Shown: positions 31,377-45,782, numbered from the stretch's first letter. The stretch: DNA of 64,000 nucleotides from Dictyostelium discoideum (GCA_000004695.1 CM000150.2:928001-992000), one strand, 5' to 3'. A program made the numbers and translations. Notes: a model not told the origin generated them from the letters alone.

Positions 31377-32403
31377 ATGTCAAAATCAATTATTTCAGTA
31401 TTCGGCGCTACAGGACAACAAGTAAAGTATAATTTATTATTTATTTACTTTTAATTTTTTTTTTTTTTTTTTTTCATTTCAATAAATTAATTAATATTCA
31501 TTTTTTATTATTATTTTATTTTAAAAGGGTGGTTCAGTTGTTGGTGAATTATTGAAAGTTGGTAATTTTAAAGTTCGTGCATTAACAAGAAATCCAGATA
31601 GTGAAGTTGCCAAAAAATTAAAAGAAAAAGGTGTTGAAGTTGTTAAATGTGATGATAGTGATTCCAAAGAGGCAATTCAAGAAGCCTTAAAAAATAGTTA
31701 TGGTATATTTAGTGTAACATTTCCATTTGGTAAAAATGAGAGTGAAGATGAAATTGGTAAAAAGGTAGCCGATGCAGCATTGGGTGCCGGTGTAAAACAC
31801 TTTGTTTTCAGTGGCCTTGCTCCATGTAATGAAATTTCTAATGGTCGTTATGATGTACCTCATTTTGATAATAAACACAAAGTTGAGATGTATGCTAGAC
31901 AATTGTCAAAAGAAAATCCATCATTTGTAAGCTCATTTGTTTATGCACCATTCTATTACCAAAATTTTAAAACTTACTTCCAACCAAAGAAATCCAATGA
32001 AAATGGTAATGAAAACTATTCAATTTCCCTCCCATCCGACCCAACTGGTAAACCATTAGATATGGGTGATATTGAGAACATTGGTTCAATTGTATCTGAA
32101 ATCTTTTCAAATCAAAGCAAATACTCTGGTGTTGTAGTACCATTTTCAGGTGACGCTTTAACTGGTCCTGAAATTGCAAATACTTTCTCAAAAGTAACTG
32201 GTAAAACTGTAACATTCAATTTCATTCCACCATCTGTTTACCGTACCTTTGGTTTCCCAGGAGCCGACGAAATGGCTTCAATGTTTGAATACTACAACGA
32301 ATTTGGTGCATTCAATGATTTAGATAAATCAATTGCTTCAAAAATTACAAAACTTACATCTTTAGAAGAATATTTAAAAAAATCTCAATTTAAATTAGAA
32401 TAG
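31377..32403 (+). CDS. NmrA-like NAD(P)-binding Rossmann-fold protein (NmrA / isoflavone-reductase-like family). Exons are 31377..31421 and 31528..32403.
   Basis: MSKSIISVFGATGQQ|GGSVVGELLKVGNFKVRALTRNPDS contains a GxxGxxG motif split by a GTAAAG..AAAAG intron. The remainder is NmrA-like (HFVFSGL, dimer/cap region). Confidence 0.75.
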
Positions 32404-33151: not shown

Positions 33152-33401
33152 ATGATAAAAATAATTTATTTAATTGTATTATTAGTTTTATTATTTAAAA
33201 ATAACCATATTATAATAAAAGCAGATGATTGTCCTTTTCCTCAAATTCCTATAAAAACTCTTTCTGGTACTTGGTATGACGATCCTGATCATGCATCATG
33301 TGGTTTCGAAAAATTAACAGGACCATTAGGACCTGGTAATCGTTTGGTTGTTGCATTAGGTTCCAAATTGTTCGACAAAGGTATTTTTTAAGATTTTAAG
33401 A

Positions 33402-33451
<50 letters not shown>

Positions 33452-34309
33452 AATAATTAATTAATTTTTAATAATTATTTAGGGGCAAATTGTGGTCAAT
33501 GTTATGATGTAACCTCACCATTTAATAATAAAACTATTACAGTAATGGCGTATGTATATATATTATTTTATTGTTATTAAAAATTTTATTTTTAAAATAT
33601 TCAATTTATTAATAATTTTATTATTATTAATTATAGAACTGATAGTTGTCACGATGCAGGAGTAATTATTTTTTTTTTTTTTGAAAAAATATTTGTATAG
33701 AAAATATAAATTAATTTTTTTATTTTTTATTTTTTTTTTAATATTTCAAAGTATTGTCAAGCAGATAATCACTTTGATTTTTATAAAGAAGCATTTGATT
33801 TATTAGGTTCTCCATCAGGTGTAATTAGTGGTAATAGTGGACTATCATATATTAAAGTTCCATGTCCAACCTATGGTAATGTTAAAATTATGATGAAAGA
33901 TGGAAGTAATGAATTTTGGACATCATTTTTAATATTTAATTCTAGAATTTTAATAAAACAAGTCTCAATAAAATTATCAAATAGTCAGCAATTTATTGAC
34001 TTAAATAGACAACCACAAGGAAATTATTGGCCATCTACAAATATGGTATCTGGTGAATTTGAAGTTAGAATTGAATCAATTGGCGGTGAATTCATTTATG
34101 TTAAAATTCCATCAATTGAGAGTAGAAAAATTTATGATACTGGAAACCAATTTTCAGCTGATGGTTGTGTTGGTAATAAATATGATCCATATGCTCCATT
34201 TCAAATTACCTCTAATTCAAATAATATATTACCACCATCATTATATATTATTTTTTTAATTTCAATATTATTTTTAATTATTAATAATATTTTTTCAAAT
34301 AAATATTAA
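33152..34309 (+). CDS. Expansin-like protein, paralogue 1 (DPBB domain plus CBM63-like domain). It has a signal peptide and a C-terminal hydrophobic tail. Exons are 33152..33380, 33483..33549, 33637..33661 and 33752..34309.
   Basis: Signal peptide MIKIIYLIVLLVLLF. Expansin domain-1 motifs are ASCGFEKLTGPLGPG, ALGSKLFDKG|GANCGQCY (a glycine codon split by the intron) and HFDFYKEAFDLL (the HFD motif). Domain 2 has GEFEVRIESIGGEFIYVKI. The C-terminus is LYIIFLISILFLIINNIF. Splice sites are GTATTT, GTATGT and GTAATT with AG acceptors. Confidence 0.8.
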
Positions 34310-34845: not shown

Positions 34846-35926
34846 ATGAAAACTTTTGTATTATTTGTAATATTATTATGTTTAACATTTTTATCAATTT
34901 CTAAAAGTGAAACATGTCCATTTTCACAATCATTAGTTAGTGGTGCATCAGCAACTTACTACACTGATCCAAATGCAGGTAATTGTGGTTATGAAAATCT
35001 CATGGGACCTCTTGGACCTGGTAATTTATTTATTGCTGCCCTTGGCCCAAATCTCTACAATAATGGTATTTTTCTATTTTATTAAAATTTTGAAAAAAAA
35101 GTTAAAGAATAACCACTTAATTACTAACAAAAATTGTTTAAATTATTATTTTTATTATTATATTTTATTTTTAAAAAAGGAAAAAATTGTGGTCAATGTT
35201 TTAACATCTCATCACCTTATACCAATAGATCAGTAGTAATTATGGCGTATTCTATCATTTATTTTATTTTATTTTTTAATTATTAATTAAAAAAGTTTGA
35301 AATAATATTAATATAAAAAAAAAAAAAAAACAATTTTTTTAAAATTAATTAGTACAGATTCATGTCCAGATTCAGGTTATTGTCAAAGATCATCACATTT
35401 TGATCTTTCAACCCAAGCATTTGATGTTTTAGGTGCACAATCGATTGGTGTATTAGAAGGATTAACTTATTATAAGGTACCATGTGGTGTTAATGGTAAT
35501 GTTAAAATTATGATGAAAGATGGTAGTAATGATTATTGGACAGCTTTTTTAATTTATAATTCAAAAGTAACAATTAAAGATGTCTCTGTAAAGATAACTG
35601 GTAAATCTACATATACAAGTTTAACTCAAAGTTCTTACAATTATTGGATTTCTCCAAATATGGTCCCAGGATCATTTGATGTTAGAATTGAATCTGTTGG
35701 TGGTGAATTCATCTATATAACCATTCCAAAGGTTGAAAGTAGAAAACAATATGAAACATCAAGTCAATTCAGTGTTGATGGTTGTGTTGGAACACCCTCT
35801 GGTCCATCTGGTGGTTTAGGTAGTCCATCAACTGGTGCTAGTATTGGTACTCCATCTGATGCTTCATCATTAACATTATATGCATTATTTTCTTTAACAA
35901 TTTTATTTTTAGTAATGTTAAATTAA
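34846..35926 (+). CDS. Expansin-like protein, paralogue 2, in tandem with paralogue 1. Exons are 34846..35065, 35180..35246 and 35353..35926. The C-terminus is a Ser/Gly/Pro-rich linker plus a hydrophobic tail, GPI-anchor-like.
   Basis: It is collinear with paralogue 1: GNCGYENLMGPLGPG, ALGPNLYNNG|GKNCGQCF, TDSCPDSGYCQRSSHFDLSTQAFDVL, GSFDVRIESVGGEFIYITI. It lacks the intron that splits DAG|YCQ in paralogue 1. The tail is GTPSGPSGGLGSPSTGASIGTPSDASSLTLYALFSLTILFLVMLN. Confidence 0.8.
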
Positions 35927-35938
35927 AATTAATAAAGT

Positions 35939-35990
<52 letters not shown>

Positions 35991-36383: not shown

Positions 36384-37467
36384 ATGAAATTTTTAATTAC
36401 AATTTTATTATTATGTATTATAAATTTTGTAATTGGTGAAAATAATTTATTATCATCATCATCTTCAATAATTCCAAGTGAATGTGGAAATCCAAATTAT
36501 CAAAAATTAGAAAGTTATATTAATGGATTAGTTGGGTCTTATGGATACTGTAACGGTACAGAATGGGGTGTAACAGATTTCAAATCATTTTCAATTTTAA
36601 GTGAAAATTCTCAAAATTCTCAACAAACAGCATCAACAATTAAACTTTGGGTATTATTATCAGTTTTTAAAGATATTGAAGCAGGTTTATACACATTAGA
36701 AAAACAAATTGAATGTTCAACTGGTCTTATCACTGTTGAACAATGTATTGCTTTAATGATTGGTGTATCTGATAATTGTGCAACCTATTCATTAACTGCA
36801 TTAACTAAAATTGAATCTGTAAATTCTGTAAGATATTCATTTTTTTTAAATTTTAAAAAATAAAAAAAAAAATAATAAAATATTAATTATTTATTTATTT
36901 ATTGAAATATAGTTATTTTCAGAATTAGGAATGAATGATAGTCAATTTATTGAATGGTGTTTTTCAACATGTGTTGGATATAGTGATCCATGTCCAAACG
37001 TTTCAGGTGGTTCAGGTAATAATGTGTTAAGTTCACATGATGTTATCCATGGATTAACACTTTTACATCAAGGTTCAATTTTAAATCAAACAATGACAGA
37101 GATGACCTATAAATATTTATTGACTGCACATGGTTGGCAACCAATGATTGGATATTATGTTCCAGCACCAGTTGCCCATAAATCTGGTTGGTTACCAGCT
37201 GATGAAGGTTTTGACCCATTCACTGAAAATGATGAAGCCATTGTTTTCTCTGAATGTGGTGATTATGGTGCTTCAATTATGATCACTAGAGATTGGTCAA
37301 ATCCACAAGAAGATACAATCGCTTTAGAATTGGGTGCTTTAATTGGAAAATATATTTATTGTACAATGGTACCATTTGGTAATACAAATGATGGTGCTTC
37401 ATGTTCTTATATTTTATCACAACCAATTCCAACACCATCTTGTACTTCTTCTTCCTCTTCTTCTTAA
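36384..37467 (+). CDS. Secreted class A serine beta-lactamase-like protein (penicillin-binding-protein fold). Exons are 36384..36827 and 36913..37467.
   Basis: Signal peptide MKFLITILLLCIINFVIG. The catalytic motifs are collinear with TEM-1. ASTIKLWVLLSVFKDIEAG matches [22 protein letters not shown] (S70-x-x-K73). LITVEQCIALMIGVSDNCATYSL matches [22 protein letters not shown] (S130-D-N). ESVNS|LFSELGMNDSQFIEW spans the intron and holds the omega-loop Glu candidate. AHKSGWLP matches ADKSGAG (K234-S/T-G). The intron uses GTAAGA..ATATAG. Codon usage is AT-rich, as in the host. Confidence 0.8.
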
Positions 37468-37527: not shown

Positions 37528-37560
<33 letters not shown>

Positions 37561-37648
37561 GAAAATAAAATAAATCCCAAAAATAAAAAAATAATAAAAA
37601 AAAAAAAATAAAAAAATGTTCGTTTTTTTTCACTCGAGTTTCGTTTCG

Positions 37649-37703
<55 letters not shown>

Positions 37704-37757
37704 CAAGATATTGTAGAAAAAGCAATAATTTGATTTTTATTTATATATTTATTAAAA

Positions 37758-39822
37758 ATGCCAGCAATTAAATCAAATAAATCAACAGCTTCTGCTTTAG
37801 AAACTACATCAAAAACCACTACTAAAGTTGTTTCAACTGGTTTACCATTAGTAAATAAAGAAAAAGCAATTGAAGCAATCAATGCTCTCAATAAATATTT
37901 CGAACAAAAACAATTAACAGAACCATTAAATATTTTAGAAGAAAATAAAAAAATCTATATAACTTTTGAAACTGATAAATACTATCATAATAGTTTATTT
38001 AAACCACATCATATGTAAGTTTTTTTTTATTTTTTATTTTTTTTATTTTTTTATTTTTATTTTTTTTTTTTTTAATTACTAATATTAAATATCTTTTTTT
38101 TTTATATATATATAGAGTTGCACCACATAAAATTGGTGAATTATCAGAAAAAAGAACATTAGTTATTATTGAAGGTGGTAAAGTAGATGCAATTAATTTA
38201 AAGACTAAATTAGTAGATTTAGGATATACTGGTGCAGTTGATGTTCTTTCAATGAAAGAATTCAAAAATGAATATGTCACAAAAGAACAAATTATTAAAG
38301 TTAGAAAAACATATGATGAATTTGTTGTAGATAATTTTTATAAACAAAAAATTCAACATAAATTTGGTAAAGAATTTCAAAATTCACCACAGTATGTATA
38401 ATATTTTTAGAAAAATGATCAATTATTATTATTACTATTATTATTATCAATTCTAATAATATATTATTATTATTATTTTTTTTTTTTTTAAAAAATAGAT
38501 CACCAAAACTTTCAATAATTGATCAAAAGAATCCAGTTGAATTAATTGAAACATTAAATAAACTTGATAGAATGGTATTGGTTAGAAGATTTACTGAATT
38601 ATTTTTCACACTTCCAGTTGGTACATCAGATTTACCAGTTGAGCAACTCATTGAAAATGTTGCATTCATTGTAGGTGAAGTTTCTAATAAATTACCTGAA
38701 AAAATTAATTCAATTCAATCACTTTCAATTGCTGGTTCAGATATTAGTTTACCATTTTATGTAAATGTTAAAGTACCATCAAATCTTTTATTCAATTCTA
38801 AAGAAAATAAAGTTGAATTAAATCCATTAGCAATACAACAAGAAAATAATAATAATAATAATAATACATCAGAAGAATCAACAACAAATACTACTACTAA
38901 TACCAAATCAAATAAAAAGAGAACAGAACCAGAATCAGAAGAAAAAGAACAAGAACAACCAATTAAAGAAAAACCAAATAAAAAATCAAAAACAACACCA
39001 GTTAAAGAAGTTAAATCAACACCAGCTGCTGTTGTTGCTAAACCAACTACACCAGTTAAAGAAGTTAAAGAAACACCAATTAAATCAAAAACACCAGTTA
39101 AAGAATCAACCCCAGCTGTCGTTGCTGCTGCTGTTGCCGCTAAACCAACTACACCAGCTAAACAAGTAAAGGAAACACCAATTAAATCAAAGACTCCAGT
39201 TAAAGAATCAACACCACAAGAAACCACCACTCCATCTAAACCAACTAAAACTCCAACCAAAGCAACAACCACCACCGCCGCCCCAAAAGAAGTAGAATCA
39301 ACTCCAGTTAAAGAAGTCAAACAAACTCCAGCCAAACAAGTTAAAGAAACTCCAGTTAAACAAGTTAAAGAGACACCAGTTAAACAAGTTAAAGAAACTC
39401 CAGTTAAACAAGTTAAAGAAACTCCAGTCAAAGAAGTCAAAGAAACCCCAGTTAAACAAGTTAAAGAAACTCCAGTCAAACAGGTTAAAGAAACAGTAAA
39501 AGAAGTTGCCGCTCCAGTTAAAGAAGTTAAAGAAACCCCAGTAAAAGAAGTTGCTGCTCCAGTTGCTAAGAAAGTTACTAAAAAAGCAGCCGCTGCTCCA
39601 GTTGAAGTTGCTCCAGTTGAAGCTGCACCAGTTAAAAAAGTTGTTAAAAAGGCTACTGTTGCTGCTGCTCCAGTTGAAGCTGCTCCAGTTAAAAAAGTTG
39701 TTAAAAAAGCTGCTGCTGCTCCAGTTGAAGAAGCTGCCCCAGTTAAAAAAGTTGTTAAAAAGACTGCCACCACCGCCACTGCTACTGCTTCAAAATTAAA
39801 AAAACCAATTGAAAAGAAATAA
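37758..39822 (+). CDS. Ribosomal L1-domain-containing nucleolar protein (RSL1D1 / yeast Cic1-like) with a Lys/Pro/Val-rich repeat tail. Exons are 37758..38014, 38116..38391 and 38499..39822.
   Basis: It is collinear with human RSL1D1. SMKEFKNEYVTKEQIIKVRKTYDEFVVDNFYKQKIQHKFGKEF matches [85 protein letters not shown] matches [43 protein letters not shown]. The tail has about 10 tandem KEVKETPVKQV units. Introns are GTAAGT..TATAG and GTATGT..AAATAG. Confidence 0.75.
39290..39530. repeat. 27-bp coding tandem minisatellite (actccagttaaacaagttaaagaaac, about 9 units) that encodes the TPVKQVKE(T) repeats.
   Basis: Direct tandem copies at the DNA level with only synonymous or conservative variation. 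Confidence 0.85.
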
Positions 39823-40116: not shown

Positions 40117-40357
40117 TTATTTTTCTAAAAAATTGTCAACATAAATTTTTCTTAAATTAATTGAAAGATCATGAATTGGTAAACCGGTGACATTATAAAA
40201 ATCACCATTAATTGATTTTATAAAAGATGCTGCTGGGGTTTGTTGGATGCCATAAGAGCCCGCTTTATCCCTAGGGTAAAAAAATAAACAAAAAAATAAT
40301 AAATAATAAAAAAATAAAAAAATGTAAAAATAAGAATTAAATAATTATTTCATTAAT

Positions 40358-40397
<40 letters not shown>

Positions 40398-40896
40398 ACA
40401 ATGGTTTGAAATTGTCAACATAATAATTAATTAATTCAGGTGATAATTGATCAAACTCAACATTTGTTAAAGTGTAAAAACTAGAGGATCCTTTAGAATT
40501 TGTATTTTCATTAAAAAATTCAATATGGACAGCTGTGCAAACGGTATGAATTTTACCACTTAATAAAGTTAGCATGGATTTAGCTTCTTCTAATGATTTT
40601 GGTTTTTCGAATATTTTATTATCATATACTACAATACTATCTGACCCAATGATAATATTTGGTTGTTGATTTTGTTCTTTTAATTGTATTCCAGCATGAA
40701 TTGCTTTTAATTTTGCATTCTCTAAACAATAATCATAAACTGATTGAAATTGACTTTTATCTAAATCTTCCTTAAATTTTGATTCAACAATTTCAAATTT
40801 TACACCCAATTTACCAAGGTATTCAATTCTTCTTGGTGATGTTGATGCTAAAATTATCTTTAATTTATTAAGTTTGACCAAAATGTCTAAAATCAT
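40117..40896 (-). CDS. Maf-like nucleotide pyrophosphatase (Maf/Ham1 superfamily, septum-formation protein Maf homologue). Minus-strand exons are 40896..40400 and 40270..40117.
   Basis: Motifs are [57 protein letters not shown] and [21 protein letters not shown]|[36 protein letters not shown]. The intron runs from a GTAAGG donor to a CCTAG acceptor and sits exactly at the conserved EPL-DKAG junction. Confidence 0.85.
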
Positions 40897-42208: not shown

Positions 42209-43231
42209 ATGGCAAATCAAAACCCAAGACCAATTTTAAAGGGCACAAAATCAAATTTTACATTGGTACATAATATAGGAAATGTATCGGATGAAAAAGT
42301 TAAAGAATATTTAAAAACAGAAATATTAGTCAAAGAATGGATTGAAGAAGTATTACAAATTAAAATTAAAGAGAGTTTATCTGATGCTTTGAAAAATGGT
42401 ATTGTTTTATGTTATTTAGCAAACGCCATTCAAGATAATATTGTACCAACTATCACAGAAAAATCCAGATTAGTAAATATTTCCATTATAAACTTTTTTT
42501 TTTTTTTTTTTTTATTTTTTTATTTTTTTTTTTTAAAAAAAGAAATAATAATAATAACACATATTAATATAAGTTTATTTCTATTTTTATATGTATATAT
42601 ACATATATATATTTTTTTTAAAATTTTATTTTAAAATTTTATTTATTGTATTTTAATTTTTTATTTATTTATTTTTTTTTTTTTAAAAAAAAGGGATTAG
42701 AATTTAAAAAAAATATTGATTTCTTTTTATTAGCATTAAAAGATTTAGGATTTCCAAAACAAAAATTATTTAAATTAAATGATTTATATGAAGGAGAGAG
42801 TATAGTCAGAGTTGTTGAATGTTTATCACAATTATCAAAATTTGCATGCCAACATAAAGGATATCAAATTCCAATGAAATTAACACCAACATCAACACAA
42901 CCAATTAAATTACCAGTGGGTGAACATTTAAATCATTTGAAATTACAATTATCACAAATTAAAGAGTATACCATGGATAAATCAAATTCAAATCAGCCTC
43001 GAATGGGTACAGCAGTCTTGAAGGCTAAAATGGCATTATTAGCTGGTAACTCTATTGATTTTGCTAAATGTGAAAGAGGTTTCATTAAATTTCAAAGTTT
43101 ATGGAGAGGTTTTAGAGTTAGACAATTTGTTAAACATATGAGTAAGTTTTATTTTATATTCTATATTTTATATTTTATATTTTATATTTTATATTTTATA
43201 GTAGTGGTAGTAGTAATGGTAATTAACTAAA

Positions 43232-43297
<66 letters not shown>

Positions 43298-44432
43298 AAT
43301 AGAACGTGAAGTTGCATATAGAGAAAAAGTTATACAAGAAATTTTAAAAACTGAAGAAGATTATGTTAAAAATTTAAATATTTGTATTAAAGGATATATG
43401 GAACCATTGGTTAGTAGAGATGTAATTACAAAGGATCAACAAAAGTTAATATTTTCAGATATTCAAATCATTTATAATTTTGGTAATAAATTTTTGGATC
43501 AATTGAGAAATCGTTGTGGTAATAATTGGAGAGTTTATCAAAAGATTAGTGATTTATTTTTACAGATTTCAGCATTTTTAAAGGTTTATACAAGTTATGT
43601 TCAAAACTATAATACTGCATTGGAGACATTGGAAGAGTTGAAGAAAAAAGATAAACAATTCATTCAGGTTTTAAATGAACAAAAAGAGTCTCAACAAATT
43701 AATGGAAAAGATATAACTTCATTTTTAATTCAACCAGTTCAACGTGTACCACGTTATTATTTACTTTTGACCGATTTGGTGAAACATACTTGGGAAGATC
43801 ATCCAGATTTGAAACCATTGGTTGGTGCCGCTGAAAAGATTAAAGATGTGGCTGCCTTTTTAAATGAACGTAAAAGGGAGGGTGAAAACTTTCAAAAGTT
43901 TACAGAGATTCAATCAATACTCGTTGGTAAAGTACCACAATTATTCACTCCATCACGTCGTTACATAAAACAAATCTCATTCAATCCTACTAAAAAACAT
44001 GAAATTATGGTTTATCTATTTAATGATTTAATTGTTTATGGTAAAGTTATGAAAGGTATTTTTAGTGGTGGTGGCGGTGGTAGTGGTGGTGGTGGCAATA
44101 ATAATAGTAACACTGGTGGTGCTGCAGGTGGTAGTCAATATAGTAATTATAATAATAACAATAATAACAATACCACTATCAATGAAAATAGAAAAGTTAA
44201 ATATCAAGGTATGATAGAGTTGGTAACTTGTGTTGTGGTTGATGATAGTCATCCATCACCATCAAGTCATTTGGATATTCGTTCAAACGATAAGGATAAC
44301 CTCTTATTGTTAACAATTATCTCAAAGAATGAAACTGAAAAAAATAATTTAAAAATTGAAATTAATAAATTAATTAGTAATATTCATGAAAATCAAAGAT
44401 CAAAAGAACAAAAAATAATAGAAAATTCTTCA

Positions 44433-44471
<39 letters not shown>

Positions 44472-45782
44472 GCAGTAGAAAATATACCAGAGCCAACGAT
44501 CGAACAACAATTATCTGAAAGAAAGAAAATTATGAAAAGAGTTGAGTCAAATAGTATTAATTCAACTGCCACCACAACTGCTACTACTACCACCACTACA
44601 ACAAATACAAGTATAAATACAAATACAACATCAACCACACCAATTAACTCACCATCACGTAATAATAGTAGTAATAACATAAACATCGTACCACCAACAT
44701 CTCCAGAGCAACAACAATCAATACCAGTTAGTTCATTTATAAGCTCATTATTTAATAAAAAGAAATCATCATCATCATATAATGCTACTTTATCACCAAA
44801 TAAAGTGGAAAATAATACACCTATATCAGATTCAGAAAGTAGCGGCAATACATCACCTCAATCACCAAGTTCATCACCAACAACAACAACAACAACATAT
44901 GTTGATGAATCTGAAAAATCAAGTCCAAAAACTTCAAGAAAAAAGAAAGCACAATCAATTTCTATGTCACCAACTAATACACCAACAACACCACCACCAC
45001 AATCTGAAGATACCAATAATAGTAATGATAGTAGTAGTAATAATAATAATGCGGAAATACAAGAACCACCAAAAGAAAAAGGTAGACCAAGATCAAAATC
45101 AACCTCACGTTTATCAAGAATAACAGGTGTTTTAACATTAAGAAAAAGAAAAACTCAATTAGTTGATGAATCTCAAATTCCAACTAGTGATGACGAAGGT
45201 CAAACATCTCCAACATCTCCTTCCAAATCTTCGATTGATTTATCACAATCACAACATAATCCAACCCCACATTCTTCATCATCGTCATCATCACAACAAG
45301 ATGATTCTTCTTTGGCATCATCAATTTCACCATTATCAATTTCTACACCAAATCCAATTCCAGTTACAGCCTTAGCCTCTACCACTACTACTACCGCTAC
45401 TACTAATAATAGCACCACCTCAAATACTGCATCACCAAATTCATCAGCAACAACTCATCGTTTATCCTCATCATCAACTAATCTTTCAACAAACAATAAC
45501 GAGTGCGAACCTTCAAATAATAAGGCTGGTTCATCAACTTCAGATTTACAATCACCAACATCATCATCATCATCACCATCATCATCAACAGCAACAACAA
45601 ACAATCTATCATATGAAAAAATAATAGCTCAAAAAAGTTTAGGTGAACTTGACCCTTTAAATCTTGAAACTTATTTATCAAATGCTGATTTTAAAAAACT
45701 TTTTGGAGTTGAACGTTCAGAATTTTTAAAATTCCCAAAATGGAAACAAAACCAAAAAAAGAAAGATCTTAAGCTATTGTAA
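42209..45782 (+). CDS. Rho-family guanine-nucleotide exchange factor with an N-terminal calponin-homology domain, an IQ motif, a DH (RhoGEF) domain, a PH-like region and a Ser/Thr-rich tail. Exons are 42209..42472, 42694..43141 and 43303..45782.
   Basis: The CH domain spans intron 1 (EWIEEVLQIKIK...NGIVLCYLANAIQ | NIDFFLLALKDLGFPKQKLFKLNDLYEGESIVRVVECLSQL). The IQ motif is FIKFQSLWRGFRVRQFVKHM. The DH domain starts after intron 2 (REVAYREKVIQEILKTEEDYVKNLNICIKGYMEPL ... QPVQRVPRYYLLLTDLVKHT). Intron 2 contains (ATT)n. Confidence 0.8.

What the first reader, a model, noticed from the sequence alone, without database searches (positions are those of the whole stretch)
36384..37467. Intact class A beta-lactamase-like secreted enzyme encoded in an amoeba nuclear gene with an intron
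The protein keeps every class A serine beta-lactamase / PBP active-site element in the canonical order and spacing. These are S-T-I-K (SxxK), S-D-N, an omega-loop Glu candidate (IEW) and K-S-G, and alignment with TEM-1 is good across the whole domain. It starts with a eukaryotic signal peptide. It contains a spliceosomal intron (GTAAGA...ATATAG) inside the catalytic domain and uses host-like AT-rich codons. It is therefore an integrated, ameliorated gene and not bacterial contamination. Class A beta-lactamases are essentially bacterial, which makes this a strong candidate for ancient horizontal gene transfer into a bacterivorous amoeba. Possible roles are antibiotic detoxification in soil, peptidoglycan fragment processing during feeding, or a moonlighting hydrolase.
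Basis: partly seen in the sequence, partly recalled or inferred. Interest (0 to 1): 0.75.

Follow-up and report, generated by a model that had tools for sequence, protein, structure and literature searches.

The report
Amoeba secreted penicillin-binding-type enzyme gene
This is a real, already annotated Dictyostelium discoideum gene for a secreted enzyme with the class A beta-lactamase fold, but it lacks the glutamate that makes true beta-lactamases work, so it is more likely an old bacterial-derived cell-wall peptidase used by a bacteria-eating amoeba than an antibiotic-destroying enzyme.

Summary
The gene model is right. Exon 1 (36384-36827), an 85-nt intron and exon 2 (36913-37467) give a 332-aa protein. 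It is identical to D. discoideum AX4 XP_647353.1 / UniProt Q55G30, named "beta-lactamase-type transpeptidase fold containing protein".

E162 aligns with Ambler 164 and is His in half the orthologues. Ambler 166 is an invariant Cys, and N170 is absent. NCBI's class A model scores 23.9 bits against a cutoff of 200. The nearest structures (LRA-5, PBP-A) are Glu166-less proteins with negligible beta-lactamase activity.

The best reading is a secreted, disulfide-rich PBP-A-like DD-peptidase acting on prey peptidoglycan. This substrate assignment is inferred, not shown.

Bacterial origin is plausible but old. The eukaryotic clade is monophyletic (100% bootstrap) and only 28-29% identical to its nearest bacterial relatives. 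It shares an intron site across four dictyostelid genera, and EukProt transcriptome assemblies assigned to Clastostelium and Gefionella also carry it.

I found no paper on it, and it is not in the published Dictyostelium HGT list read here (Sucgang 2011, Table 2). Interest is moderate.

The parts
36384..36827 (+). Exon 1 (aa 1-148): signal-peptide-like N-terminus, SxxK, SDN
   Evidence: ORF and splice reconstruction. The spliced product is identical to XP_647353.1.
36384..36437 (+). Putative signal peptide (aa 1-18, MKFLITILLLCIINFVIG|E)
   Evidence: Read directly from the sequence: a basic N-terminal region, a 15-residue hydrophobic core, and a small residue at position -1. All full-length orthologues start the same way. 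No SignalP-type tool was available, so the cleavage site is inferred.
36633..36644 (+). S84-T-I-K87 = Ambler S70-x-x-K73 (nucleophile and lysine)
   Evidence: These residues fall in the TEM-1 S70 and K73 columns. Ser and Lys are present in all 11 family members that cover this region.
36768..36779 (+). S129-D-N131-C132 = Ambler S130-D-N132, followed by an invariant Cys
   Evidence: Invariant in alignment A1. The residues align to the TEM-1 SDN motif.
36828..36912 (+). Spliceosomal intron: 85 nt, phase 0, GTAAGA...TATAG, 6% GC
   Evidence: An intron sits at the same site and phase in D. purpureum (64 nt), C. fasciculata (60 nt) and H. album (72 nt).
36913..37467 (+). Exon 2 (aa 149-332 plus stop): omega-loop region, K-S-G, C-terminal Cys-rich extension and poly-Ser tail
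36952..36960 (+). E162-W163-C164 = Ambler 164-165-166. Cys replaces the catalytic Glu166.
   Evidence: MAFFT of 177 domains and hhalign agree through C164 on E166; BLASTP agrees up to W163 on W165. C164 is present in 12 of 12 family members. Position 162 is Glu in 6 and His in 6.
37180..37188 (+). K238-S-G240 = Ambler K234-S/T235-G236
   Evidence: Lys and Gly are invariant. The middle residue is Gln in 11 of 12 lineages and Ser only in the D. discoideum complex.
37189..37227 (+). Conserved insertion in the beta3-beta4 loop (W241-LPADEGFDPFT-E253)
   Evidence: It is absent from TEM, CTX-M, KPC and PBP-A. Among the aligned sequences displayed (22 of the 177), a comparable insertion occurs only in the nearest bacterial subgroup (P0024, P0025, P0026, P0028, P0030). 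It is nearly invariant in the eukaryotic family.

Best explanation
The gene encodes a secreted (or endolysosomal), disulfide-stabilised serine acyl-enzyme hydrolase. It has the class A beta-lactamase/PBP-A fold and works like a low-molecular-weight penicillin-binding DD-peptidase, not like a beta-lactamase.

Proposed mechanism:
- Ser84, activated by Lys87, attacks the D-Ala-D-Ala end or a 4-3 cross-link of a bacterial peptidoglycan stem peptide.
- Ser129 and Asn131 (SDN) and Lys238/Gly240 (the beta3 strand) position the substrate and shuttle protons.
- The acyl-enzyme is then resolved by water without an omega-loop glutamate.
- With beta-lactams it would therefore form a long-lived acyl-enzyme (penicillin binding) and turn over slowly.

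In a bacterivorous amoeba this would help take apart prey cell walls alongside lysozymes.

Proposed history: an ancestor acquired the gene from bacteria before the dictyostelid radiation. It then gained a signal peptide, an intron, 12 conserved cysteines (probably six disulfides) and AT-rich codons.

Shown here: gene structure, fold, motif conservation, absence of Glu166 and Asn170, and phylogenetic isolation. Inferred: secretion, the disulfides, the peptidoglycan substrate and the physiological role.
For: - **Catalytic residues.** The SxxK Ser and Lys are present in all 11 members that cover them, the SDN Ser and Asn and the KxG Lys and Gly in all 12, and the surrounding loops are almost invariant. 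This argues for a working active site under selection.
- **No deacylation machinery.** Ambler 166 is an invariant Cys and N170 is absent.
- **Experimental precedents.** LRA-5 has Val166 and biologically insignificant activity; the Y69Q/V166E double mutant gains up to 11,000-fold (PMC12777564). PBP-A lacks the omega-loop Glu and is a DD-carboxy/endopeptidase. Its promiscuous activity rises at acidic pH (PMC11189452).
- **Domain fusions in bacterial relatives.** The domain is fused to NlpC/P60 (P0024), Peptidase_M14 (P0028), Amidase_3 (P0180) and LysM (P0186). The first two are among the closest relatives; all four partners are cell-wall-acting or cell-wall-binding modules.
- **Secretory features.** There are 12 conserved Cys in the mature protein and a hydrophobic N-terminus.
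- **Domestication.** The intron site is conserved in four dictyostelid genera. Synteny is conserved. GC3 is 0.108.
Against: - No activity, localisation or expression data were available, so the substrate assignment rests on analogy and on domain fusions in distant (28-29% identical) relatives.
- Residue 235 is Gln in most orthologues and varies (I/M/T/V/P) in the bacterial sister group. Substrate carboxylate recognition may therefore differ from both PBPs and beta-lactamases.
- Position 162 is always Glu or His. Both could act as a general base if the enlarged, Cys-rich omega loop is arranged differently from TEM. I could not inspect model coordinates to exclude this.
- The family is adjacent to expansin-like genes in three dictyostelid genomes. 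That might instead point to a role in the amoeba's own extracellular matrix.
- PBP-A itself is not the sister group: it grouped with the family in 1 of 100 bootstraps.
Confidence: 0.5

Rival explanations
1. It is a genuine beta-lactamase that detoxifies soil beta-lactams. It would need a non-canonical general base, for example Glu/His162 or the Cys164 thiol.
For: It has the class A fold. S70, K73, S130, N132, K234 and G236 equivalents are all present. Position 162 is always Glu or His, both of which are potential bases. D. discoideum itself has K-S-G.
Against: Glu166 and Asn170 are absent. NCBIfam bla_class_A scores 23.9 bits against a cutoff of 200. Glu166-less homologues with solved structures are essentially inactive until Glu is introduced (PMC12777564; PMC11189452). 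Position 162 corresponds to Ambler 164; in TEM-type enzymes that residue anchors the neck of the omega loop and points away from the active site (textbook knowledge, not tested here). A eukaryote has no peptidoglycan target to protect.
Confidence: 0.12
2. It is a hydrolase for an endogenous or non-peptidoglycan substrate. Candidates are a component of the amoeba's extracellular matrix or cell wall, or a secreted signal molecule (a peptide, ester or lactam).
Against: Homologues also occur in Clastostelium, which is not a dictyostelid, and in a Gefionella (malawimonad) transcriptome. A dictyostelid-specific developmental substrate does not explain that. Bacterial relatives are fused to peptidoglycan modules. 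Gene adjacency alone is weak evidence.
Confidence: 0.2
3. It is a non-catalytic peptidoglycan or beta-lactam binding protein, acting as a sensor or lectin.
For: Some class A-fold proteins are regulators rather than enzymes, for example BlaB of Streptomyces cacaoi, which is in the hit lists. Loss of Glu166 favours long-lived adducts.
Against: The SxxK Ser and Lys (11 of 11 members covering them) and the SDN and KxG residues (12 of 12) are retained across deeply diverged lineages. The protein is a single soluble domain with no transmembrane or signalling module.
Confidence: 0.08
4. The gene was not horizontally acquired by Amoebozoa. It is an ancient eukaryotic, possibly endosymbiont-derived, gene lost from most lineages.
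For: A Gefionella (Malawimonada) homologue branches at the base of the eukaryotic clade. No close bacterial donor exists: bit scores drop from 372 to 106.
Against: An exhaustive search of 1.84 billion representatives found only five family representatives at E<1e-30, all from EukProt eukaryotic data sets, dictyostelid genomes or one unassigned metagenome fragment. That distribution is very patchy. The Gefionella sequence comes from a transcriptome of a culture, so contamination or eukaryote-to-eukaryote transfer cannot be excluded.
Confidence: 0.15

Closest known systems
PBP-A (Tll2115) of Thermosynechococcus elongatus, a class A-fold DD-carboxy/endopeptidase (PDB 2j7v)
   Different: Identity is only 20-22%, and PBP-A is not the sister group (1 of 100 bootstraps). 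PBP-A is a bacterial periplasmic protein expressed without its N-terminal domain for study (PMC11189452). The amoeba protein has a eukaryotic signal peptide, 12 conserved Cys, a longer omega loop, a roughly 10-residue beta3-beta4 insertion, K-Q/S-G rather than K-T-G, and a Cys-rich C-terminal extension.
LRA-5, a class A beta-lactamase 'precursor' from an Alaskan soil metagenome (PDB 8eo5)
   Different: Identity is about 20%. LRA-5 is bacterial, has K-T-G, and lacks both the Cys scaffold and the beta3-beta4 insertion.
Canonical Ambler class A beta-lactamases (TEM-1, SHV-1, CTX-M, KPC, GES)
   Same: They share the overall fold (Foldseek TM about 0.75-0.78 normalised on the target), the serine nucleophile motif, SDN, and the Lys and Gly of KTG.
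   Different: The amoeba protein has no Glu166 and no Asn170. It scores 23.9 bits on NF033103 against a cutoff of 200. BLASTP against TEM-1 gives E 0.32. The class A references form their own 100%-supported clade away from it.
Uncharacterised bacterial PF13354 'serine hydrolases', such as MDO8503749.1 and a Thermomicrobiaceae MAG; 4ewf from Sphaerobacter thermophilus is the best sequence match in the PDB
   Same: These are the nearest sequence relatives (28-29% identity; profile bits 90-106). Five of them share the beta3-beta4 insertion. They group with the eukaryotic clade in 76 of 100 bootstraps. The ASTIK, SDN and VAHKxG(W/F/Y) signatures are the same.
   Different: They are bacterial and the two genes measured are about 70% GC. 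P0030 sits in a typical bacterial context next to mfd. They lack the conserved cysteines, and the closest two are fused to NlpC/P60 or M14.
Dictyostelium 'penicillin-sensitive carboxypeptidase' DDB_G0271902 (Peptidase_S13), a published HGT candidate
   Same: It is another penicillin-binding-type enzyme of bacterial origin in the same genome, and is listed as a candidate transfer from bacteria (PMC3188802 Table 2).
   Different: It belongs to a different family (S13/PBP4 type, not PF13354). The gene studied here is not in that published list.

Membership tests
Pfam PF13354 Beta-lactamase2 (class A-fold serine hydrolases) | HMM score above the gathering threshold | tested here: met
   121.4 bits against a cutoff of 22, E 4.4e-35, aa 63-271 covering profile positions 4-213 of 214.
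Pfam PF13354 Beta-lactamase2 (class A-fold serine hydrolases) | Class A beta-lactamase/PBP-A three-dimensional fold | tested here: met
Ambler class A beta-lactamase (NCBIfam NF033103 bla_class_A) | S70-x-x-K73 | tested here: met
   S84-T-I-K87 falls in the TEM-1 S70/K73 columns.
Ambler class A beta-lactamase (NCBIfam NF033103 bla_class_A) | S130-D-N132 | tested here: met
   S129-D-N131 is invariant.
Ambler class A beta-lactamase (NCBIfam NF033103 bla_class_A) | K234-(T/S)-G236 | tested here: inconclusive
   This protein has K238-S-G240, but 11 of 12 family lineages have K-Q-G and the bacterial sister group has I/M/T/V/P at the middle position.
Ambler class A beta-lactamase (NCBIfam NF033103 bla_class_A) | Omega-loop general base Glu166 (with Asn170) | tested here: not met
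Ambler 166 is Cys164 in 12 of 12 members.
Ambler class A beta-lactamase (NCBIfam NF033103 bla_class_A) | Score above the curated equivalog cutoff | tested here: not met
   23.9 bits against a cutoff of 200.
Ambler class A beta-lactamase (NCBIfam NF033103 bla_class_A) | Efficient beta-lactam hydrolysis | not testable with these tools
   This needs nitrocefin or penicillin kinetics on recombinant protein.
PBP-A-type class A-fold DD-peptidases | Class A fold with a non-acidic residue at position 166 and intact SxxK/SDN/KxG | tested here: met
PBP-A-type class A-fold DD-peptidases | Phylogenetic membership in the cyanobacterial PBP-A clade | tested here: not met
   PBP-A appeared in the sister clade in 1 of 100 NJ bootstraps. 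Identity is 20-22%.
PBP-A-type class A-fold DD-peptidases | DD-carboxypeptidase/endopeptidase activity and penicillin acylation | not testable with these tools
   This needs bocillin-FL labelling and muropeptide assays.
LACTB / class C-type serine beta-lactamase-like proteins (PF00144; vertically inherited eukaryotic clade) | PF00144 domain match | tested here: not met
   PF13354 was the only Pfam hit at E<=1. The Dictyostelium LACTB homologues are different proteins (Q55CN2 and others; PMC2266909).
Horizontally acquired bacterial gene in Dictyostelia | Eukaryotic clade grouped with bacterial sequences, patchy eukaryotic distribution, and proof of integration | tested here: met
   Eukaryotic monophyly is 100/100. 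The clade groups with 17 bacterial or metagenomic sequences in 76/100 bootstraps and shares an indel with five of them. Only five eukaryote-side cluster representatives appear among 1.84 billion. Intron and synteny are conserved. Caveats: this is an NJ tree only, the stem branch is long, and no close donor was found.

The most novel reading that the evidence does not exclude
The invariant Cys at Ambler 166, the Glu/His alternation at Ambler 164, K-Q-G and the conserved acidic beta3-beta4 insertion together may define a eukaryote-specific catalytic arrangement on the class A scaffold. The enzyme would then turn over a non-peptidoglycan substrate.

One possibility is a true lactamase for a lactam-containing signal. 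From memory only, and not found in the searchable literature: the ornithine delta-lactam of the dictyostelid acrasin glorin, whose degrading enzyme has no assigned gene. Another is an unconventional beta-lactamase. Either would be a new mechanism, not a PBP-like peptidase.
Probability: 0.06. Interest if true: 0.75.

Novelty: new member of a known kind. Interest (0 to 1): 0.35.

Why it matters
If the best explanation holds, a eukaryotic predator of bacteria has domesticated a bacterial penicillin-binding-type peptidase as part of its tool kit for digesting prey walls. It would sit beside the Peptidase_S13 gene already proposed for Dictyostelium.

It also offers a natural example of the class A scaffold without Glu166, maintained for hundreds of millions of years in a non-bacterial host. 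That bears on the debate about whether Glu166-less proteins such as LRA-5 and PBP-A are precursors or derivatives of beta-lactamases. It is a tractable knockout and biochemistry target in a model organism.

It does not show that amoebae carry antibiotic-resistance-type beta-lactamases.

Tried and rejected
- **True class A beta-lactamase: rejected.** NCBIfam scores 23.9 against 200. The omega-loop alignment puts Cys at 166. A regex for R.E..[LM]N found none among 201 fetched proteins.
- **LACTB/class C-like vertical clade: rejected.** There is no PF00144 hit.
- **Contamination or artefact: rejected.** The product matches RefSeq exactly, and intron and synteny are conserved.
- **Giant-virus or phage intermediary: no support.** The viral-contig scan found nothing.
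- **First AF2 model.** The 11-sequence alignment gave a weak model (pLDDT 69, disordered at 221-261). It was replaced by a 28-sequence run.
- **Word-indexed homologue searches** barely reached bacteria. The exhaustive profile search was needed.
- **afdb50 fold library** was unavailable.
- **A 176-taxon bootstrap** timed out. It was redone with 70 taxa.
- **Literature searches** for Q55G30, XP_647353, EAL73377, guessed DDB_G identifiers, the product name with Dictyostelium, PF13354 with eukaryotes, and 'glorinase' found nothing relevant.
- **Weak PDB matches to LHCI polyproteins** (PAHLTGEFPADRGFDP against APVAHKSGWLPADEGFDPF) were judged to be chance motif similarity.
- **Omega loop of 4ewf.** I could not read it from the alignments returned, so I do not claim that 4ewf lacks Glu166.
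- **Model coordinates** cannot be accessed, so disulfide pairing and the orientation of E162 and C164 were not determined.

Full report
**Observation**

The window is Dictyostelium-like DNA with 21.7% GC. At 36384 an ATG opens a reading frame that runs to 36827. A GTAAGA...ATATAG intron follows (36828-36912; 85 nt, 6% GC, phase 0). The frame resumes at 36913 and ends with TAA at 37465-37467.

The spliced 332-aa product is identical over its whole length to D. discoideum AX4 XP_647353.1 / EAL73377.1 / UniProt Q55G30. That entry is named "beta-lactamase-type transpeptidase fold containing protein" and lies on a 4,923,596-bp contig.

GC3 of the coding sequence is 0.108, within the range of neighbouring genes (0.10-0.18).

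**What it is**

- Pfam gives a single strong hit, PF13354 Beta-lactamase2: E 4.4e-35, 121 bits against a cutoff of 22.
- NCBI's equivalog model for class A beta-lactamases reaches only 23.9 bits against a cutoff of 200.
- Sequence matches to solved structures are weak. The best are the Sphaerobacter thermophilus protein 4ewf and the cyanobacterial PBP-A, Tll2115.
- An AlphaFold model from an 11-sequence alignment was mediocre (pLDDT 69). A 28-sequence alignment gave pLDDT 90.5 and pTM 0.87.
- With the better model, Foldseek ranks 4ewf, LRA-5 and PBP-A first.

The fold assignment to the class A/PBP-A group is secure.

**Active site**

S84-T-I-K87, S129-D-N131 and K238-S-G240 sit in the TEM-1 columns for S70/K73, S130/N132 and K234/G236. 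The Ser, Lys, Asn and Gly are conserved in every eukaryotic family member that covers them.

I compared three alignments: a MAFFT L-INS-i alignment of 177 domain sequences, a profile-sequence hhalign against TEM-1, and a plain BLASTP. In all three, F160-I-E162-W163 matches TEM L162-D-R164-W165. In the first two, the next residue, Cys164, falls on Glu166; the BLASTP alignment ends at W163.

PBP-A Leu158 is the position mutated to Glu in the L158E structures (PDB 2j9o/2jbf); it lands in the same column in the MAFFT alignment, which supports the alignment.

- Cys164 is present in 12 of 12 family members.
- Position 162 is Glu in six and His in six.
- The Asn170 column is not conserved.
- Ambler 235 is Gln in 11 of 12 lineages. 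Ser occurs only in the D. discoideum species complex.
- None of the 201 proteins fetched by that point, including the 150 best profile hits, contains an R-x-E-x-x-[LM]-N signature.

The PBP-A fragment was reconstructed from the alignments.

Pairwise similarity to TEM-1 is not significant: BLASTP E 0.32 at about 20% identity.

**Consequence for mechanism**

In class A beta-lactamases Glu166 activates the deacylating water. Two close structural neighbours show what happens without it.

- LRA-5 has Val166 and biologically insignificant activity. It gains up to 11,000-fold in kcat/Km on Y69Q/V166E (PMC12777564).
- PBP-A lacks the omega-loop glutamate. It is a DD-carboxypeptidase/DD-endopeptidase whose promiscuous activity rises at acidic pH (PMC11189452).

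I therefore predict a penicillin-binding, peptidase-type enzyme, not a beta-lactamase.

**Relatives and origin**

The word-indexed searches found only eukaryotic family members. These were all four dictyostelid groups, EukProt sequences assigned to Clastostelium recurvatum (Amoebozoa, Protosporangiida) and Gefionella okellyi (Malawimonada), two EukProt entries with no species given (P0009 and P0023), and one JGI metagenome fragment.

The exhaustive profile search of 1.84 billion representatives shows a large gap. Five representatives score E<1e-30, all from that same family. The next hit scores 106 bits.

The nearest prokaryotic sequences are 28-29% identical. They include:

- a MAG protein annotated "serine hydrolase [bacterium]";
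- a Thermomicrobiaceae MAG;
- P0030, which sits beside mfd on a 110-kb contig with a 70.6% GC gene.

The closest two, P0024 and P0028, are fused to the peptidoglycan hydrolase modules NlpC/P60 and Peptidase_M14; more distant relatives carry Amidase_3 (P0180) and LysM (P0186).

An NJ tree of 70 taxa and 244 columns with 100 bootstraps gave these support values:

| Grouping | Support |
|---|---|
| Eukaryotic family monophyletic | 100 |
| Dictyostelids | 92 |
| Eukaryotic family plus 17 bacterial/metagenomic sequences | 76 |
| Class A references | 100 |

An insertion of roughly ten residues between beta3 and beta4 is shared, among the aligned sequences I displayed (22 of the 177), only with five members of that bacterial subgroup. 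This is independent support for the relationship.

A bacterial origin is thus the economical reading. The transfer is old, and no close donor is known. The Gefionella sequence leaves open an older origin, a eukaryote-to-eukaryote transfer, or culture contamination.

**Integration and domestication**

- The intron lies at the same phase-0 site (...VN[S/A/E/Q] | [L/V]F..LGM) in D. purpureum, C. fasciculata and H. album.
- In D. purpureum the gene has the same neighbours as in the window: expansin-like (DPBB_1) genes upstream, a Ribosomal_L1-domain gene and Maf downstream.
- H. album keeps a homologous expansin-like neighbour.
- One EukProt model, P0023, fuses the expansin-like and lactamase-like parts.
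- The mature protein has 12 cysteines conserved across the family and absent from the bacterial relatives. It also has four N-x-S/T sites and a hydrophobic N-terminus.

These features fit a secreted or endolysosomal glycoprotein with six disulfides. That localisation and the disulfides are inferred.

**Comparison with what is known**

The published Dictyostelium HGT list, as tabulated by Sucgang 2011, contains a Peptidase_S13 "penicillin-sensitive carboxypeptidase", DDB_G0271902. It does not contain this PF13354 gene. The Dictyostelium LACTB homologues are different proteins. I found no paper on this protein.

It works like PBP-A and LRA-5. It is a member of PF13354. It fails the tests for membership of class A beta-lactamases proper.

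**Verdict**

The feature is real. It is an annotated but unstudied gene.

The most likely function is a peptidoglycan DD-peptidase used in bacterivory, at confidence about 0.5. Interest is moderate, because acquisition of cell-wall-active bacterial enzymes by bacterivorous amoebae is an established theme.

Noticed in passing
window 33152-34309 and 34846-35926 (+): Two tandem expansin-like genes lie immediately upstream. Each has a signal peptide, a DPBB-like exon and an expansin C-terminal-like exon. They are homologous to the DPBB_1 neighbours of the lactamase-like gene in D. purpureum and H. album. A 695-aa EukProt model (P0023) fuses an expansin-like region to the lactamase-like domain. This could be a conserved gene pair or a mis-merged gene model.
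   Followed up: partly
window 37758-39822 (+): The downstream gene is homologous to the D. purpureum Ribosomal_L1-domain protein. It carries a long C-terminal array of PVK(E/Q)VKET-type repeats. The ORF on the opposite strand, 38757-39779, looks like a repeat-driven artefact.
   Followed up: no
window 40129-40896 (-), 31552-32403 (+), 42209-45782 (+): These are ordinary neighbours: a Maf-like protein, an NmrA-like protein, and a CH-domain / RhoGEF / villin-headpiece gene region.
   Followed up: no
window 35946-35988 and 37536-37705: The intergenic regions flanking the gene contain very long homopolymer A and T runs, about 40 nt or more. This is typical of Dictyostelium intergenic DNA.
   Followed up: no
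protein aa 231-251 (window about 37159-37221): The segment APVAHKSGWLPADEGFDPF gives weak PDB matches to repeated PAHLTGE(F/Y)PADRGFDP motifs in LHCI polyproteins (9vfj; E 3e-4 to 0.2). I judged this to be chance similarity.
   Followed up: no
P0133 (representative-library hit, 4384 aa): This is a giant protein with four Beta-lactamase2-like stretches. It falls in the 17-member bacterial/metagenomic group that clusters with the eukaryotic family. Its origin is unknown.
   Followed up: no
C-terminus, window 37447-37464: The poly-Ser tail varies in length among D. discoideum-complex strains and species, whose products range from 331 to 341 aa. This looks like trinucleotide-repeat variation.
   Followed up: no
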